In this document: positions 35,201-44,000 of the stretch, piece after piece
How positions within the stretch are numbered: position 1 is the first letter of the stretch
Layout of the letters: every line of letters begins with the position of its first letter
Source of the DNA: Anolis carolinensis
Taxonomy: Eukaryota
Length of the DNA: 64,000 bases
Direction: 5' to 3'
Assembly: GCF_035594765.1 (NCBI RefSeq)
Contig: NC_085842.1
Coordinates: 22,234,782-22,298,781, forward strand
Program-made: the position numbers

Positions 35201-38200
35201 TCCAAGTCCATCTGAATATGAATAGGATAGTCTATTATCTTTAATCATTAGCATTACAGTTGCCCCTTCACATTTGTGCATTTGACTGAAAATATTCTCT
35301 CTATGAATCTCTAGATCCTCCAGAGTGACTAAGTGGTCAACGTTTCCCAGTCACTCATGAAGACCTAGAGATTTAGATTTTCCAGTGCAATTCAGTTTCT
35401 TGTAGAAGTTGACCACAGCACTGTGCTGTAAGATATAGAAATTCCTAGAAAGGTGTTTTCTCACATTTTTAAAAAAGCAATTCAATGTGTTGTTGAATGT
35501 TTTCATGGCCAAAATTACTGGGTTGCTGTGAGTTTTTCAGGCTGTATGGCCATGTTCCAGCAGCATTCTCTCCTAACATTTCATCAGTCACAAATACAGC
35601 CAAAATGTCAGGAGAGAATGTTAATGGAACATGGCCATACAGCCTGAAAAACTCACAGCAACCCAAAAAGCAATTCCTTTATTTGCTGTTATACACATTC
35701 ATAAGGGTCCTGTGAACCTCCAGCAAATATGGAGAGCGGTCTATATTTTGGGGGGAAAAACAAAAACAACTCCCGATGCTCATCAAATCATTGATGAAGA
35801 CTTGTGGAAATGGGAGTAGTCACATCAGCTCCTGATGTCAGCTCTTGGATTATACTTCTCCCCTTTCCACCCTATATGAATGGATTTGGATAATTATTGG
35901 CTATTTTTAAATTTTAATTGAACCTGATTTCAAGATTTATCACTGTTGATGCTTCTCCTATTTTATAATAGTTATCTAGCTGTATATATCTAGCTGTACA
36001 TATCTAGATGTATACATTCTTATAAATGTGACACATTGCCTATATGATGGTCACCTGATTGTACCGGGCCTTATAACTTAGGATGTCCAGATATGTTGTA
36101 CTACCTTCAGTGGTTTTGTACCCTTGATATTTTTCACAGGGCTAACTATTGTCCTATTTACACGTTTTAAAAATTACAGCTACCCCTCCACATTTGCGGA
36201 TTTAACTGCTGTGGATGAGATTATTCTCAGAATTGCTTGATATGTCCTCCAGCATGATTCCACAGACTATAGCACTGGAGAATCTAGAGCAGTGGTTCTC
36301 AACCTGTGGATCCCCAGATGTTTTGGCCTTCAAATCCCAGAAATCCTAACAGTTGATAAATTGGCTGGGATTTCTGGGAGTTGTAGGACAAAAAAACTGG
36401 GCACCGACAGATTAAGAACCACTTGTCTAGAGATTCTTAAAGAAAAGTCTCCTCTCTGGAGAAAAAAAACCCGTTTTTTTTTTTAAAAAAATCACATTTT
36501 TGTACTTTTGCAGGGATCCTGCACCCATAACCACCATAAAAGTGAAAGGCCTAGTGTATCTCCTCCTAGTGTATCACTGCTGCATCATTTTGGGTGTTTT
36601 GCTTCTTTAAGAGATCCTCTCTTGTTTTCTCTTTTTTGAGAGTGAATAATCAACCTTCATAAAAGTGGGGGGTCTATAATATCTATTTGAAGGGAAATAA
36701 CATAAAAAGACTCTCTTTTCTACTCCACTCTCTTTTGACATCTAGCTCGTTTAAGACATCCTCTCTTGTTTGAGAATGGATAATACATCTTCACCTGGAA
36801 GCATTTCGCCATCCTCAGCTGAATGGCCAAAGAAGGCCTTTGAAACAATGGTGCCTTTGTTGTAGCAAAGTCCTTGAAATATTGGTTAGGCACTATTCAT
36901 AAAGTAGTTTGCCAGAGTATCTCTCACTAGCATCCCATTCTGCTGATCTTCAAGCGATGTTGGGAATGAGAGGAGTCCCTCGGGGGCCTGGTCAAACACA
37001 CTCTGGTCTTCCGAACACAGCGCATCCACCAAATCGTGCCCACGGTTTTCGCATATATTGTGGAGGACGACACACCCCACGACGACAGGGATGATATTGT
37101 CTTCCGACACCTCCAAGCGTGTGGCCAAGCATTTCCACCGGCCCTTCAGCCGCCCGAAGGCAAGTTCGGCGATCTTCTTGCAGTCCTCCAGTCGGGAGTT
37201 GAAACGCCTTTTGGACGGGTCGAGGTTGTCAGTGAAGGGAGTCATAAGCCATCGCTTCAAGGGATAGGAGGCGTCAGCCAAGATCAATGGGGGAATCTCG
37301 ACATTGCCAATGGTCAAGGTGGGATTCCCGGGCACAAAAGACCCCTGGTCCATGCCGTCGCACAGCACCTGGTTTCGGAAGAAGGAGGCGTTTTCATCTT
37401 TGCCACACCAGCTAAGTTCGATATCGACGAAACGGCCCCTGTGGTCCACAAGGGCTTGCAACGACATCGGGAAGAAGCCCTTCTGGCTGACGCTGGTCCC
37501 CTTCCGCACGGTGCAGAGGATGGGGATCTGGGTCCGGTCCACAACCCCCACGCAGTTTGGGAAGCGCATATTCGCAAATCCTGCCATGACCTTCAGAAAT
37601 ATAAGGAGACAATGTTAGAAAGAGTCTGTGTGCTTAACTCCCACTACTATCTAGATCAGGCATGGGCAAACTTCAGTCCTCCAGGTGTTTTGGACTTCAA
37701 CTACTGGCTGTTACGAATTGTGGGAGTTGAAGTCCAAAACACCAGGAGAGCCAAAGTTTGCTCATGCCTGATCTAGATCATGGTTTCTTAAACCTTTTCC
37801 ACTAGCCATTCCTCTCCACTTGAGAAATATTTACATGACTCCAGGTATAAAAATCAAACATTTACTGAAAATAAATAGTCATTTGCCACAGTGGTCCATG
37901 CTCTTGTTACGTTGAGAATAGATTACAGCAACGCGCTCTACGTGGGGTTATCTTTGAAGACTGTTCGGAAGCTTCAAATATGTTTAATGGTTTTAATGAT
38001 TTTAATTTATAGCTATATGTGTTTAGTTATTATGATTTTTTCTATGATATGTATGTTGGCACTGAATTTCTGCCATTAATATAGTAAATAAATAAATAAA
38101 TTTGCATGGCTTGCTAAACAGGCTGATCCTTCTTTTTGTGGAGTACATTTTCAGCAGAGTCCACTGTAAACACTGCACATTGTTGCTAACAGACTTGTAT

Positions 38201-41059: not shown

Positions 41060-44000
41060 GTTTAACTTATCCAAGATAAACGGGCCGGCAGAACATTGGA
41101 TAAGTGAAAATCTTGGATAATAAGGAGGGATTAAGAAAAAAGCCTATTACACATAAAATAAAATTACATTATGATTTTACAAATTAAGCACCAAAACATC
41201 ACATTTTACAAGAAATTGACAGAAAAAGCAGTTCAATACACAGTAATGTTATGTAGTAACGAATTTAGCCCCAAAACATTGCAACATTTACTACAAAAAC
41301 AATGACTACTAAAAGGCAGACTGCCTTGGATAATACAGAAGCTTGGATAAGTGAAGCTTGGATATGTGAGACTCTACTGTACTTGCATTCTCTTTGATCC
41401 CTTAATGGCTTCAAATAGGTGGTAATATTGCAAGAAAGCATTTAAAGAGGGCAAAATGAACAAGCTGGAAGAAAAAAATGAAGGAAGAATGGGAAATTAT
41501 AGGAAATGAATTAAGTCACAGCTTAGGTTCCCCCAAAGTTTCAACCAAATAGGAAGTAAGATCTATATATTGCAGGCTTGGGCCAATTTGGGCCTTCCAA
41601 GTGTTTTGGACTGCAACTCCCACCATTCCTCACAGCCTCAGGCCCTTTCCTTTTCCCCCTCAGCCGCTTAAGCGGCTGAGGGGGAAAAGGAAGGGGCCTG
41701 AGGCTGTGAGGAATGGTGGGAGTTGCAGTCCAAAACACCTAGAAGGCCCAAGCTGGCCCAGGCCTGGTCTATACCTCACTTGGCTTCTCTTCTATCTGGC
41801 TTCAATCTCTGCTCCTTTGCCACCCCTCAAAAAGGTTTGAAAGCTAAAGGTTTAAAACGATAGAGCAGCGTATCCTAGACTAGTATTTTCTCAACCCTCT
41901 TCTTCCACTTTGGACTTCACTTCCCAGAATCCTTGATCATAGGCCAAACCAGCTGAGGCATCTGGGAGTTGAAGTCACTTAGATCGCTGAACGTGGGGGC
42001 GTGAGCGTACGCGCTGACGTCATCCACCCTCCAACATGTTTTGGACTCCACTTCCCAGAGTTCTCTCCCATTGGCGAGCCCAAGCAGAGGCTTCTGGGAG
42101 TTGGAGTCCCAAAACCGCTGAACGGGGAACGCTTGGTCCAATGGGGAAACCGCTCTCAAGGCGTCAGGAGAGCAGGAGGCCTGGATGGGCAGGGCGCCAT
42201 TTCTTGTCCATTGTGGGGGCCAAAATGGCGCCTGCTCAATCTTAAAGGTGAAGAGTCGTTTAAATAGCTTAGAATAAGGCAGAAAAGGAAACTCTGTAGG
42301 GGTGTTAGCTCTTCCTTATTGCTATCCAAAGCTATTTGGCTGGAGTTGAACTTAAAAAATGGATGTGAACACCTGTGGAATGTCCAGGGTGAGAGAAATA
42401 ACTCTTGTCTGAGGCAAGTTATGCTAATGCTAATTTTATATACATATACATATATATAATATACAATAATTTATAAATATATATTGTATATACATATAAT
42501 ATTGATAATAATATTATAATTTAATACATTATACTAATAATAATACAATATAATAATATTAATTATATATTGTATAATAAATGTAATATTACTAATAATA
42601 TTACTATATAATGATATAGTACAATATAGTAATTTAATGCTTATATTGTGCTATGCTAATAATATATTGTATGTACATTTGATTTGTAAGCCGCTCTGAA
42701 GTCCCCTTCGGGGTGAGAAGAGCGGGATATAAATGTAATAAAATAAATAAATAAGTGTATATGATGCAATTGGCAACCTTAATTAGCATTGAATGGCCCT
42801 GCAGCTTCAAAGACTGTCTGCTTCCTGCTTTGGGAGGAATCCTTTGTTGGGTGGTATTAGCTAGCCCAGGCTTTGAAGCTGCAAAGCTATCCAGTGCTAA
42901 TCAAGGTGGCCAATTGCAACTTCCACACTTGCCAGATATGAACCCCACTTGCCTTAGTTTCCAACAGACCTCACAACCTCTGAGAATGCTTGCCATAGAT
43001 GTGGGCAAAACATCAGGAGAGAATGCTTCTAGAACATGGCCACACAGCCCGGAAAACTCACAGCAAACCAGTGATTCTGGCCATAAAAGCCTTCAACAAC
43101 ATATCAGCAATATGTTTTATATACAGTAGAGTCTCACTAATCCAAGCTAAACGGGCCGGCAGAAGATTGGATAAGCGAATATCTTGGATAATAAGGAGGG
43201 ATTAAGGAAAAGCCTGTTAAACATCAAATTAGGTTATGATTTTACAAATTAAGCACCAAAACATCATGTTTTACGACAAATTTGACAGAAAAAGCAGTTC
43301 AATATGCAGTAATGTTATGTTGTAATTACTGTATTTACGAATTTAGCACCAAAATATCACGATATATTGAAAACATTGACTACAAAAATAGCTTGGATAA
43401 TCCAGAACGTTGGATAAGTGAGACTCTATTGTATTACAATATAGTAATTTAACGCTTATATTGTGCTATGCTAATAATATATTGTATGTACATTTGATTT
43501 GTAAGCCGCTCTGAGTCCCCTTCGGGGTGAGAAGAGCGGGATATAAATGTAATAAATAAATAAATAAATAAGTGTATATGATGCAATTGGCAACCTTGAT
43601 TAGCATTGAATGGCCGTGCAGCTTCAAAGACTGGCTGCTTCCTGCTTTGGGGGGAATCCTTTGTTGGGTGGTATTAGCTATCTCAGGCTTTGAAGCTACA
43701 AAGATATTTAATGCTAATCAAGGTGGCCAATTACAACTTCCACACTTGCCTCAAACAGACAGGAGTTCTTTTTCCCACCCTGGACATTATTCCATAGATA
43801 TATAAACCCCACTTGCCTAGTTTCCAATAGGCTTCACAACCTCTGAGGATGCCTGCCACAAATGTGGGCAAAACATGAGGAGAGAATGCTTCTGGAACAT
43901 GGCCACACAGCCCGGAAAACTCACAGCAAACCAGTGATTCCGGCCATGAAAGCCTTCGACAACATATCAGCAATATCTTCTATCTATCTATATATATAAA

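What the first reader, a model, noticed from the sequence alone, without database searches (positions are those of the whole stretch)
36886..42240. Apparently domesticated Harbinger transposase gene inside a SCAN-ZNF cluster
Seen: an intact 423-aa two-exon ORF with a strong Kozak start and CpG-rich exons, a 2.1-kb intron full of decayed TEs, a housekeeping-type promoter, no enclosing TIR/TSD and no Myb/SANT partner ORF in the window. Compared with typical Harbinger motifs, IDGTH is VDRTQ, NRK is SQK and the conserved HD is EN (GKDENA), while the LAD aspartate and the ELAFG glutamate remain. Established: HARBI1 and plant ALP1/HDP1 are domesticated Harbinger nucleases that act with Myb/SANT-type partners, the plant ones in chromatin complexes. 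Inference: a separate, probably catalytically impaired reptile domestication that may work with neighbouring ZNF or SANT proteins.
Basis: partly seen in the sequence, partly recalled or inferred. Interest (0 to 1): 0.75.

Follow-up and report, generated by a model that had tools for sequence, protein, structure and literature searches.

The report
Lizard gene tamed from Harbinger transposase
This is a real, intact green anole gene that descends from a Harbinger "jumping gene" enzyme and has been kept nearly unchanged in geckos and iguanian lizards; it is a further example of a known kind of gene, not a new kind.

Summary
On the minus strand, two exons (40263-39697 and 37590-36889), split by a 2,106-nt GT-AG intron, encode 423 aa. 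Both match NCBI's predicted Anolis carolinensis protein LOC103278110 at 100%. Exon 2 is a DDE_Tnp_4 (PIF/Harbinger) nuclease domain. Exon 1 carries a weak HTH match.

Full-length relatives of 422-423 aa at 71-83% identity occur in Sceloporus and four gecko genera. They form one clade with a long stem and short tips. The next relatives are at most about 53% identical. These are multicopy turtle and lizard Harbinger transposases and KRAB/SCAN fusions.

I found no TIR/TSD, no second copy, and no Myb/SANT, KRAB or TRIM ORF nearby.

"Catalytically impaired" is not shown. The D-D-E triad is intact in the anole and in 8 of 10 orthologues, with E changed to G in two geckos. The catalytic half is eroded at conserved motif positions and diverges twice as fast as the N-terminal half.

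Domesticated Harbinger ORFs in the anole, and one squamate-wide example, are already in print. Verdict: a new member of a known kind, of moderate interest. I could not test dN/dS, synteny, expression or structure.

The parts
39697..40263 (-). Coding exon 1 (189 codons): N-terminal amphipathic and basic stretch, then the W-rich and HTH region of the transposase
   Evidence: 100% to P0003 residues 1-189. Weak HTH_Tnp_4, HTH_38 and SpoIIID matches at residues 129-180 (E 0.02-0.1, E 0.12). Homologous to transposase N-termini by profile-profile alignment.
39733..39882 (-). Predicted helix-turn-helix (residues 128-177), nearly invariant among orthologues
   Evidence: (weak Pfam HTH hits) and the invariant-column list.
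37591..39696 (-). Intron (2,106 nt, GT...AG) holding a palindromic MITE at 37649-37778 and three other window-repeated segments
   Evidence: A turtle paralogue (P0187) aligns without a gap across the junction: residues 57-194 to exon 1 and 193-420 to exon 2.
36886..37590 (-). Coding exon 2 (234 codons plus TAA): DDE_Tnp_4 nuclease domain and C-terminal tail
   Evidence: PF13359, E 3.6e-21, residues 31-178; 100% to P0003 residues 190-423.
37537..37539 (-). Codon of D207, first residue of the DDE triad (VVDRTQ)
   Evidence: D in 10 of 10 orthologues; column 86% D in 187 background homologues.
37273..37275 (-). Codon of D295, second residue of the triad (ILADASYP)
   Evidence: D in 10 of 10.
37165..37167 (-). 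Codon of E331, third residue of the triad (IAELAFGRLKGRW)
   Evidence: E in 8 of 10, G in Gekko japonicus and Sphaerodactylus townsendi.
40264..40294 (-). 5' untranslated start of the first coding exon, after a possible acceptor (ttatAG|G); reading frame open up to the ATG
   Evidence: Consensus only, no transcript data.
41780..42299 (-). Putative non-coding first exon and promoter: donor AA|GTGAGG at 41780, CpG-rich patch 42000-42299, TGACGTCA at 42022-42015
   Evidence: Unverified; partly made of MITE-like sequence (repeats at 41909-42127).
41566..41773 (.). Palindromic MITE (two 104-nt arms, 91% complementary) directly downstream of the proposed donor. It is a dispersed repeat, not an end of the gene.
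   Evidence: I1; 7 matches to its 24-mer in the window.

Best explanation
This is a single-copy host gene (NCBI LOC103278110) that arose when a PIF/Harbinger transposase was immobilised in the squamate stem lineage, before geckos split from other lizards. It has been inherited vertically since then.

Shown here: the gene is intact. It lacks transposon ends and a cis Myb gene. It has full-length orthologues of the same length in two gecko families and two iguanian families. It has evolved slowly after a long stem branch.

Inferred: it no longer transposes. What selection mainly keeps is the N-terminal half, which holds the amphipathic and basic N-terminus, the W-rich block and the helix-turn-helix. 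By analogy with Harbinger transposase/Myb, HARBI1/NAIF1, ALP1 and HDP1, this is the part that would hold a partner protein and/or DNA. The RNase-H-like DDE core would then be retained mostly as a scaffold. The most likely mode of action is therefore a nuclear, partner-dependent DNA- or chromatin-associated adaptor. Nuclease activity remains possible in the anole, where the triad is intact, but is not the conserved function.
For: Identity. PF13359 DDE_Tnp_4 matches exon 2 at E 3.6e-21. The whole length is homologous to transposases (hhalign probability 100, 413 columns).

Host-gene status. Only one locus in the window matches six transposase queries. There are 0 TIR+TSD candidates and no Myb, SANT, KRAB or SPRY ORFs.

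Orthologues. Ten full-length proteins of 422-430 aa have a mean column identity of 89% and one single-residue indel. In a 70-row tree, 12 orthologue-like rows form a clade with SH-aLRT 100. The inner topology (Euleptes, Sphaerodactylus), (Gekko, Paroedura), (lgn, (Anolis, Sceloporus)) follows the taxonomy.

Constraint. About 3.2% of single-base changes in either exon create a stop codon. With an assumed 0.25 neutral changes per site, an open frame would survive with P about 0.01 for exon 1 and 0.0035 for exon 2 in each lineage. Exonic CpG o/e of 0.5-1.0 contrasts with 0.07-0.27 around the exons.

Shift of constraint. Mean pairwise divergence is 0.10 in residues 1-189 and 0.21 in residues 190-423 (21 pairs of 7 orthologues). 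Towards paralogues the two halves are similarly distant (19-47% and 22-48% identity). The clade departs from family consensus at 2 of 28 conserved N-half positions but at 11-15 of 58 C-half positions. Background medians are 3 and 6, and the turtle multicopy elements score 0 and 0. E331 is G in 2 of 10, and the His of 'HD' is absent in 10 of 10.

Transcript hint. Unnamed contigs of only 1,429-2,048 nt encode full-length orthologues. Other contigs of about 1 kb yield ORFs that begin at the second residue of exon 2 (P0182, P0184). This is what spliced mRNA alongside unspliced DNA would give.
Against: No dN/dS could be computed, because no orthologous DNA was reachable. No synteny check, no expression data for the anole and no structure were obtained.

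The D-D-E triad is intact in the anole and in 8 of 10 orthologues. After roughly 200 My that is also what a working nuclease would show.

The two E-to-G calls rest on single predicted proteins.

No orthologue was seen among the listed hits from snakes, anguimorphs, acrodont iguanians, teiids or Eublepharis. The gene may therefore be dispensable in many lineages, or merely unannotated. The Podarcis muralis record (P0183) ends in a frameshift-like tail after residue 217.

The partner and the chromatin role are analogy only. The HTH match is below Pfam's threshold.
Confidence: 0.6

Rival explanations
1. It is a working, HARBI1-like host nuclease. The DDE core still cuts DNA, and the N-terminal half only targets or imports it. 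The motif changes retune activity rather than abolish it.
For: The triad D207/D295/E331 is present in the anole and in 8 of 10 orthologues, with both Asp in 10 of 10. A second conserved squamate clade from the same transposon radiation has lost both Asp (G-G-E), which shows that dead versions do lose them. The whole DDE_Tnp_4 domain is retained without deletions.
Against: E331 is G in two geckos from different families. The family's His in 'GSxHD' is lost in 10 of 10, and the adjacent Asp is N in Anolis and Sceloporus. There are 11-15 departures at 58 conserved C-half positions. The catalytic half evolves twice as fast as the N half. With about half of the domain's columns invariant anyway, two invariant Asp are weak evidence.
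Confidence: 0.27
2. The two exons are the 3' part of a larger fusion gene (SCAN and/or KRAB plus transposase), like its paralogues, spliced from an upstream exon of the ZNF cluster.
For: Paralogues are fused to KRAB or to SCAN+KRAB: P0038 and P0026 by Pfam, and others by precomputed domains. The gene lies on the same strand as the SCAN-ZNF genes. The frame is open from the candidate acceptor at 40294 to the ATG.
Against: No Pfam domain was found in 56 minus-strand ORFs of 30-69 aa, or in the longer ORFs, between 40264 and 46943. The upstream ZNF exon ends in a stop codon. NCBI's model and all six named full-length orthologues start at the same MEN[LMI]EA, and conservation begins there.
Confidence: 0.05
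3. It is a neutral relic or a recently active Harbinger copy that happens to be open.
For: NCBI once named it 'putative nuclease HARBI1'. It belongs to a family with many copies in turtles and some lizards.
Against: It is the only copy in the window, with no TIR/TSD. It has orthologues of the same length at 71-83% identity in geckos and iguanians, with species-tree-like branching. An open frame is improbable under neutrality. Novick et al. report fewer than 10 Harbinger-related copies in this genome and none active (PMC3014272, section read).
Confidence: 0.02

Closest known systems
HARBI1 (vertebrate Harbinger transposase-derived gene; partner NAIF1)
   Same: It is an unfused, TIR-less host gene made of the transposase's HTH region plus the DDE_Tnp_4 core. 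Its triad is intact and its function is unknown. Like HARBI1, it is expected to need a Myb-like partner (HARBI1/NAIF1 interaction: PMC9392472 and PMC9710019, passages read).
   Different: HARBI1 dates to the base of jawed vertebrates and is conserved from teleosts to mammals (same papers). This clade was seen only in squamates. Its nearest relatives are reptile transposases at no more than about 53% identity, and no mammal, bird, amphibian or fish protein is among the 120 listed hits. It is 423 aa long; the 349 aa figure for HARBI1 is recalled, not checked here. The locus is a SCAN-ZNF cluster. A true HARBI1 sequence could not be obtained, so the two were never placed in one tree.
The five TIR-less Harbinger ORFs of Anolis carolinensis (Novick et al. 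2011, PMC3014272)
   Same: Same genome, same superfamily and same argument: open frame, no TIR/TSD, hence domesticated.
   Different: Those are uninterrupted ORFs of 442-466 aa. This gene is 423 aa and is split by an intron into ORFs of 242 and 274 aa, so an ORF search would probably have missed it. The paper gives no coordinates in the text I read, so identity with one of the five cannot be excluded.
'Apparently domesticated' Harbinger that anchors the harbiTRIM locus of squamates (Boys et al. 2025 preprint, PMC12262214)
   Same: It is squamate-wide, about 200 My old, and described as intact and transcribed.
   Different: That element lies among TRIM, butyrophilin and PRY-SPRY genes and is drawn for leopard gecko, iguana and common lizard. 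This window has no PRY-SPRY or TRIM ORF, and no orthologue from Eublepharis appeared in my hits. The preprint's main text gives no gene identifier and its supplements were closed, so whether it is the same gene stays open.
Plant ALP1/ALP2 and HDP1 (domesticated Harbinger transposases in PRC2 and histone acetyltransferase complexes)
   Same: This is the working model: a transposase-derived protein used as a chromatin-complex subunit, possibly with a Myb partner.
   Different: These are independent plant domestications. Arabidopsis ALP1 has DGA in place of DDE (PMC4671723, passage read), whereas the anole protein keeps DDE.
KRAB/SCAN-transposase fusion genes (host-transposase fusions; Cosby et al. 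preprint 10.1101/2020.05.07.082677)
   Same: Its sister clade contains such fusions from the same transposon radiation. Examples are Anolis LOC103280956, a Sceloporus SCAN-KRAB-DDE protein of 748 aa, and Pogona, Python, Liasis and Salvator proteins.
   Different: This gene is unfused. No KRAB or SCAN exon lies between it and the upstream ZNF exon.

Membership tests
PIF/Harbinger transposase superfamily (by descent) | DDE_Tnp_4 (PF13359) catalytic domain | tested here: met
   E 3.6e-21, 75.9 bits against a cut-off of 24.8, for exon 2 residues 31-178. Orthologues score 53-73 bits and turtle elements 127 bits.
PIF/Harbinger transposase superfamily (by descent) | HTH region N-terminal of the DDE core | tested here: inconclusive
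   One search gives HTH_Tnp_4 at E 0.023, below Pfam's cut-off. One search gives a SpoIIID HTH at E 0.12. The region does align to transposase N-termini.
PIF/Harbinger transposase superfamily (by descent) | D-D-E catalytic triad | tested here: met
   D207, D295 and E331 are present in the anole. Among orthologues 8 of 10 are DDE and 2 of 10 are DDG. In the background, 132 of 187 are DDE.
Active or autonomous Harbinger transposon | 14-25-nt TIRs and a TTA/TAA target-site duplication | tested here: not met
   0 candidates; only dispersed MITE- or SINE-like inverted repeats among the 25 pairs shown.
Active or autonomous Harbinger transposon | Second gene for a Myb/SANT protein inside the element | tested here: not met
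   no Myb, SANT or MADF match in the ORFs of 70 aa or more that were scanned (169 of 230 in the window, counting).
Active or autonomous Harbinger transposon | Multiple near-identical copies | tested here: inconclusive
   There is one locus in the 64-kb window. Novick et al. report fewer than 10 copies genome-wide (PMC3014272).
Domesticated (host) gene | Orthologues across distant species, one clade, species-tree-like | tested here: met
   Anolis, Sceloporus, Gekko, Paroedura, Euleptes, Sphaerodactylus (plus a partial Podarcis record and unnamed records) form a clade with SH-aLRT 100.
Domesticated (host) gene | Purifying selection (dN/dS well below 1) | not testable with these tools
   No orthologous DNA was available. 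The proxies are open frames of equal length, 89% mean column identity and the stop-codon calculation.
Domesticated (host) gene | Conserved synteny | not testable with these tools
   No reptile genome collection was on hand.
Domesticated (host) gene | Transcription and splicing | tested here: inconclusive
Orthologue contigs of 1.4-2.0 kb hold the whole ORF. No anole RNA data were available.
HARBI1 orthologue | Membership of the jawed-vertebrate-wide HARBI1 clade | tested here: not met
   The evidence is indirect. The clade nests in a reptile-only radiation, and no mammal, bird, amphibian or fish protein is among the 120 listed hits. No HARBI1 sequence was available for a direct tree.
KRAB/SCAN host-transposase fusion | KRAB or SCAN exon spliced to the transposase exons | tested here: not met
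   no such domain between 40264 and 46943 on the minus strand. Orthologue proteins start at the same Met.
ALP1/HDP1-type chromatin subunit | Physical association with a chromatin complex or a Myb partner | not tested
   No partner sequence was at hand and no complex job was run.

The most novel reading that the evidence does not exclude
Squamates own a private, roughly 200-My-old counterpart of HARBI1. In it, selection keeps the N-terminal HTH and partner-binding half rather than the nuclease core. The gene sits in, and acts on, fast-evolving gene clusters. It might serve the SCAN-ZNF cluster seen here, or it might be the 'domesticated Harbinger' that anchors the antiviral harbiTRIM cluster. 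In either case it could act as a chromatin or recombination factor that helps such clusters diversify.
Probability: 0.12. Interest if true: 0.7.

Novelty: new member of a known kind. Interest (0 to 1): 0.4.

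Why it matters
Only one transposase-derived Harbinger gene (HARBI1) is generally recognised in vertebrates, and its function is still unknown. This is a second, independent and lineage-restricted domestication whose history is clearly readable: a long stem, slow tips, an intact triad in most species, and constraint shifted to the N-terminal half. 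It offers a natural comparison for asking what host genomes use these proteins for.

The same transposon radiation also produced a catalytically dead clade conserved in squamates and several KRAB/SCAN fusions. Squamates are therefore a good system for studying repeated domestication of one transposase. For genome annotation, the practical point is that automated names such as 'putative nuclease HARBI1' or 'ALP1-like' are misleading for this gene.

Tried and rejected
No fold and no fold search were done, so the geometry of the triad and of the changed 'HD' motif is untested.

I therefore could not name the 339-352-aa representatives that I had hoped included a true HARBI1.

Searches that found nothing useful. 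PDB by sequence found nothing for exon 2 at E up to 1 beyond chance-level hits, and only a SpoIIID HTH at E 0.12 for the profile. The 'shorter' protein search gave 21 hits, none orthologue-like, the best being 59% identity over 20% of the query. Rfam found 0 families in 35000-44000 and ARAGORN found 0 tRNAs in 34000-45000.

Tools not used. Complex prediction was not used, because no partner sequence was available and neighbourhood alone is no reason to run it. Genome contigs was not used because it holds only bacteria and archaea.

Readings rejected. The HARBI1-orthologue reading and the active-transposon reading were rejected for the reasons given in the membership table. I also tested whether this clade and the second conserved squamate clade stem from one domestication. 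The AU test rejects holding them together (lnL difference 50.85, p-AU 0.00066), with the caveat that the group was named after the tree was seen.

Literature. LOC103278110 occurs in 0 papers. The searches turned up no paper describing this particular gene. Supplements of PMC3014272 and PMC12262214 were closed and may name it.

Full report
**What is there**

On the minus strand, an ATG at 40263 sits in a strong context (aaccATGg). It opens a 189-codon exon that ends at 39697 before GTACTT. After 2,106 nt, a pyrimidine-rich tract ending in AG (37592-37591) leads into a 234-codon exon (37590-36889) closed by TAA. The two translations are 100% identical to residues 1-189 and 190-423 of a database protein. 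NCBI calls it 'uncharacterized protein LOC103278110 [Anolis carolinensis]', formerly 'putative nuclease HARBI1'.

I left out the step of joining the exons and searching or folding the joined product. The full-length record that the search tool returned was used only as a database sequence.

**Domains and motifs**

Exon 2 is a DDE_Tnp_4 (PIF/Harbinger) domain (E 3.6e-21). Exon 1 gives only sub-threshold helix-turn-helix matches at residues 129-180. The profile of the family touches a SpoIIID HTH in the PDB at E 0.12.

- GAIDGTHIPI is GVVDRTQIPI.
- YxNRKG is SQKG.
- GWPGxxHDA is SWCGKDENA.
- ILGDxAYP is ILADASYP.
- VVExAFGRLKGRW is IAELAFGRLKGRW.

The exons are GC- and CpG-rich (CpG o/e 0.5-1.0, GC3 0.83 and 0.71) in a CpG-poor background (o/e 0.07-0.27).

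**Surroundings**

The gene lies between SCAN-ZNF genes on the same strand. SCAN exons are at 17293-18132, 30668-31399 and 51415-52278. C2H2 exons are at 10042-11169, 13497-14621, 24741-25829 and 46944-47981.

Of the 230 ORFs of 70 aa or more in the window, 169 were scanned. None matched Myb, SANT, MADF, KRAB, PRY or SPRY. None of 56 shorter minus-strand ORFs between the gene and the upstream ZNF exon had any Pfam match.

Six transposase queries hit only this locus in the window. The inverted repeats around the gene are copies of a palindromic MITE (34992-35137, 37649-37778, 41566-41773) and SINE-like repeats. A targeted scan for 14-nt TIRs with a TTA/TAA duplication found none.

Within the intron, 434 of 2,106 bases recur elsewhere in the window. 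'Full of decayed TEs' is thus only partly shown.

The proposed upstream exon and promoter rest on consensus alone. There is a good donor (AA|GTGAGG at 41780), a fair acceptor (ttatAG|G at 40294), a small CpG-rich patch (42000-42299) and a TGACGTCA (42022-42015). The first polyadenylation-like hexamers lie 967 and 1,202 nt after the stop codon.

**Relatives**

The exon 2 search returned nine further proteins at 71-76% identity. All are 422-430 aa long, and the next tier is at 48% or less.

A profile of ten full-length members found 212 proteins at E up to 1e-5. At the top are the same ten plus three partial ones: a Podarcis muralis N-terminal record at 82% and two unnamed C-terminal ORFs. The score then falls from 464 to 424 bits and identity to 53% or less. 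Below that break are many turtle, crocodilian and lizard proteins. Several are from 90%-identity clusters of 17-80 sequences, which indicates multicopy elements, and several are fused to KRAB or to SCAN plus KRAB. Apart from one hemichordate, every named protein among the 120 listed is reptilian.

In the 1.84-billion-representative search, the query's own cluster is followed directly by hits of 52% identity or less. There were 8,242 hits at E up to 0.001.

The named orthologues come from these groups:
- Dactyloidae and Phrynosomatidae (Iguania)
- Gekkonidae (Gekko, Paroedura)
- Sphaerodactylidae (Euleptes, Sphaerodactylus)
- Lacertidae (partial record)

The gene therefore predates the split of Gekkota from the remaining squamates in the NCBI classification. 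The age of about 200 My is taken from the squamate literature (PMC12262214 introduction; PMC10379679 abstract in the listing), not computed here.

**Trees**

In a 70-row maximum-likelihood tree, the 12 orthologue-like rows form one clade (SH-aLRT 100). It has a stem of 0.56 changes per site and tips of 0-0.16. Its sister group of squamate paralogues, which includes the KRAB/SCAN fusions, has tips of 0.2-0.9. A 38-row tree gives the same clade (100). Its inner order is (Euleptes, Sphaerodactylus), (Gekko, Paroedura), (unnamed, (Anolis, Sceloporus)). This follows the taxonomy, although the inner gecko branches are weakly supported. This is the pattern of one immobilisation followed by vertical descent.

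**Constraint**

I could not compute dN/dS because no reptile DNA collection was on hand. The proxies are as follows:
- Ten open frames of equal length, with 89% mean column identity and one single-residue indel.
- About 3.2% of single-base changes in either exon would create a stop. Under an assumed 0.25 neutral changes per site, an exon stays open with P about 0.01 (exon 1) or 0.0035 (exon 2) per lineage.
- Exonic CpGs are retained.

A hint of expression in other species comes from contig lengths. Unnamed contigs of 1,429-2,048 nt hold the entire 422-430-aa frame, whereas the anole coding region spans 3,375 nt with its intron. Contigs of about 1 kb give ORFs that begin at the Met that is the second residue of exon 2. 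This is what spliced mRNA beside unspliced DNA would look like, but an intron-less gene in those species is not excluded.

**Is it catalytically impaired?**

This is not shown. At the three triad columns the anole has D207, D295 and E331. Among ten orthologues the two Asp are invariant. The Glu is present in eight and is Gly in Gekko japonicus and Sphaerodactylus townsendi, each of which groups with a Glu-bearing relative.

In the background, 132 of 187 homologues are DDE, and six of six turtle multicopy proteins have DDE plus 'HD'.

The clade does show erosion of the catalytic half. The family's His of 'HD' is absent in 10 of 10 (K, E, G or T in its place). The adjacent Asp is Asn in Anolis and Sceloporus. 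Changes such as Pro216 to Thr and Ser230 to Pro are fixed. Of 58 family-conserved positions in the C-terminal half, the clade departs at 11-15 (background median 6, interquartile range 3-10, turtle elements 0). Of 28 in the N-terminal half, it departs at 2.

Within the clade the N-terminal half diverges half as fast as the C-terminal half (0.10 against 0.21; 21 pairs). Towards paralogues the two halves are about equally distant. The N-terminus is itself inherited from the transposase (hhalign over 413 columns).

**Most likely mechanism**

Established knowledge comes from passages read in PMC9392472, PMC2836001, PMC4482050, PMC4671723 and PMC9710019. Harbinger transposases need a separate Myb-like protein for DNA binding and nuclear import. 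HARBI1 binds the Myb-derived NAIF1. ALP1, which has DGA in place of DDE, is a PRC2 subunit.

From the anatomy and the shift of constraint, I infer that this protein acts as a nuclear, partner-dependent DNA- or chromatin-associated adaptor through its N-terminal half, with the DDE core kept mostly as a scaffold. Nuclease activity in the anole remains possible and is the main rival. A role with the neighbouring SCAN-ZNF genes is untested. The alternative that the exons belong to a SCAN/KRAB fusion is unlikely.

**What is known already**

- Novick et al. 2011 (PMC3014272; section 12 read) reported five Harbinger-related ORFs of 442-466 aa in this genome. They lack TIR/TSD and were interpreted as domesticated. 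This two-exon, 423-aa gene does not fit those lengths, but the text gives no coordinates.
- Boys et al. 2025 (PMC12262214; abstract, sections 6 and 12 and passages read) describe an 'apparently domesticated', transcribed Harbinger about 200 My old beside the harbiTRIM cluster of squamates. It carries no identifier in the main text, and the supplements were closed. This window holds no TRIM or PRY-SPRY ORF, so identity with that gene is open.
- LOC103278110 occurs in no paper searched.
- The Cosby et al. preprint mentions six anole-specific host-transposase fusions, but the words Harbinger and PIF do not occur in its main text.

I therefore file this as a new, uncharacterised member of a known kind.

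**What stayed unchecked**

- dN/dS, synteny and genome-wide copy number.
- Anole transcripts.
- Presence in snakes, anguimorphs, acrodonts, teiids, Eublepharis and tuatara. None were among the listed hits, which is not evidence of absence.
- The closed collections and the paper supplements.

Noticed in passing
not in the window; proteins P0209, P0210, P0213, P0235, P0237, P0251 (and Alligator P0274): A second Harbinger-derived clade is conserved across Salvator, Podarcis, Rhineura and three snakes. It shows 81-96% pairwise identity and tips of 0.01-0.11, with an alligator relative at about 60%. Both catalytic Asp are replaced (G-G-E, and G-G-D in Salvator). It looks like an older, catalytically dead domestication that is independent of the window's gene (AU test p 0.00066).
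   Followed up: partly
not in the window; P0016, P0022-P0024, P0026, P0038, P0045, P0191, P0192: Several squamate and turtle proteins fuse KRAB, or SCAN plus KRAB, to this transposase's DDE_Tnp_4 domain. Examples are Anolis LOC103280956 (624-660 aa) and a 748-aa Sceloporus SCAN-KRAB-DDE protein. Their triads vary (DDE, GDE, DDG, DDK, DYE, DTE, DGE). They fall in the sister group of the window's gene.
   Followed up: partly
orthologues P0005 (Gekko japonicus) and P0012 (Sphaerodactylus townsendi), alignment column of anole E331 (window 37165-37167): The third catalytic residue is Gly in these two geckos but Glu in their closest sampled relatives, Paroedura and Euleptes. This suggests two independent losses.
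   Followed up: partly
P0183 (Podarcis muralis), corresponds to window 40263 to about 37510: The lacertid record matches the N-terminal 217 residues at 82% and then runs into an unrelated 27-residue tail that looks like a frameshift. This could be a pseudogene, an assembly error or a mis-prediction.
   Followed up: no
window 4423-10040 (+): A Ty3/gypsy LTR retrotransposon carries one uninterrupted 1,645-aa gag-protease-RT-RNaseH-integrase frame (4728-9662). Its LTRs are identical over the 300 nt compared (4423-4722 against 9741-10040), so it is a very young insertion. It sits at the 3' end of the ZNF exon 10042-11169. That exon's C-terminus differs from its duplicate at 24741-25829 exactly there.
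   Followed up: partly
window 3617-4422 and 10070-11185 against 23986-25845: A recent segmental duplication of a ZNF gene copy shows 94-100% identity, with a spacing of about 14.7 kb once the LTR element is discounted. A more distant third copy lies at 13498-13839 (66-72% identity). The SCAN exons at 17375-17674 and 30681-30980 are 71% identical.
   Followed up: no
window 34992-35137, 37649-37778, 41566-41773, 55118-55141: A palindromic MITE family shares the 24-mer GTTGAAGTCCAAAACACCTGGAGG. It has 7 matches in the window against 0 expected. One copy lies in the gene's intron and one directly downstream of the proposed first-exon donor. MITE-like fragments also occur inside the putative promoter.
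   Followed up: partly
window 40967-41059 and 42435-42633: An (ATAG)23 microsatellite and a 200-nt AT-rich low-complexity block (GC about 0.15) flank the putative upstream exon.
   Followed up: no
window 19320-20687 (-), 12067-12333 (+), 44925-45194 (+), 48111-48497 (+): LINE-type reverse-transcriptase fragments are scattered between the ZNF genes.
   Followed up: no
window 36889-37590 and 39697-40263: GC3 is very high (0.71 and 0.83) for a window with 42% GC. Nothing tested here explains it.
   Followed up: no
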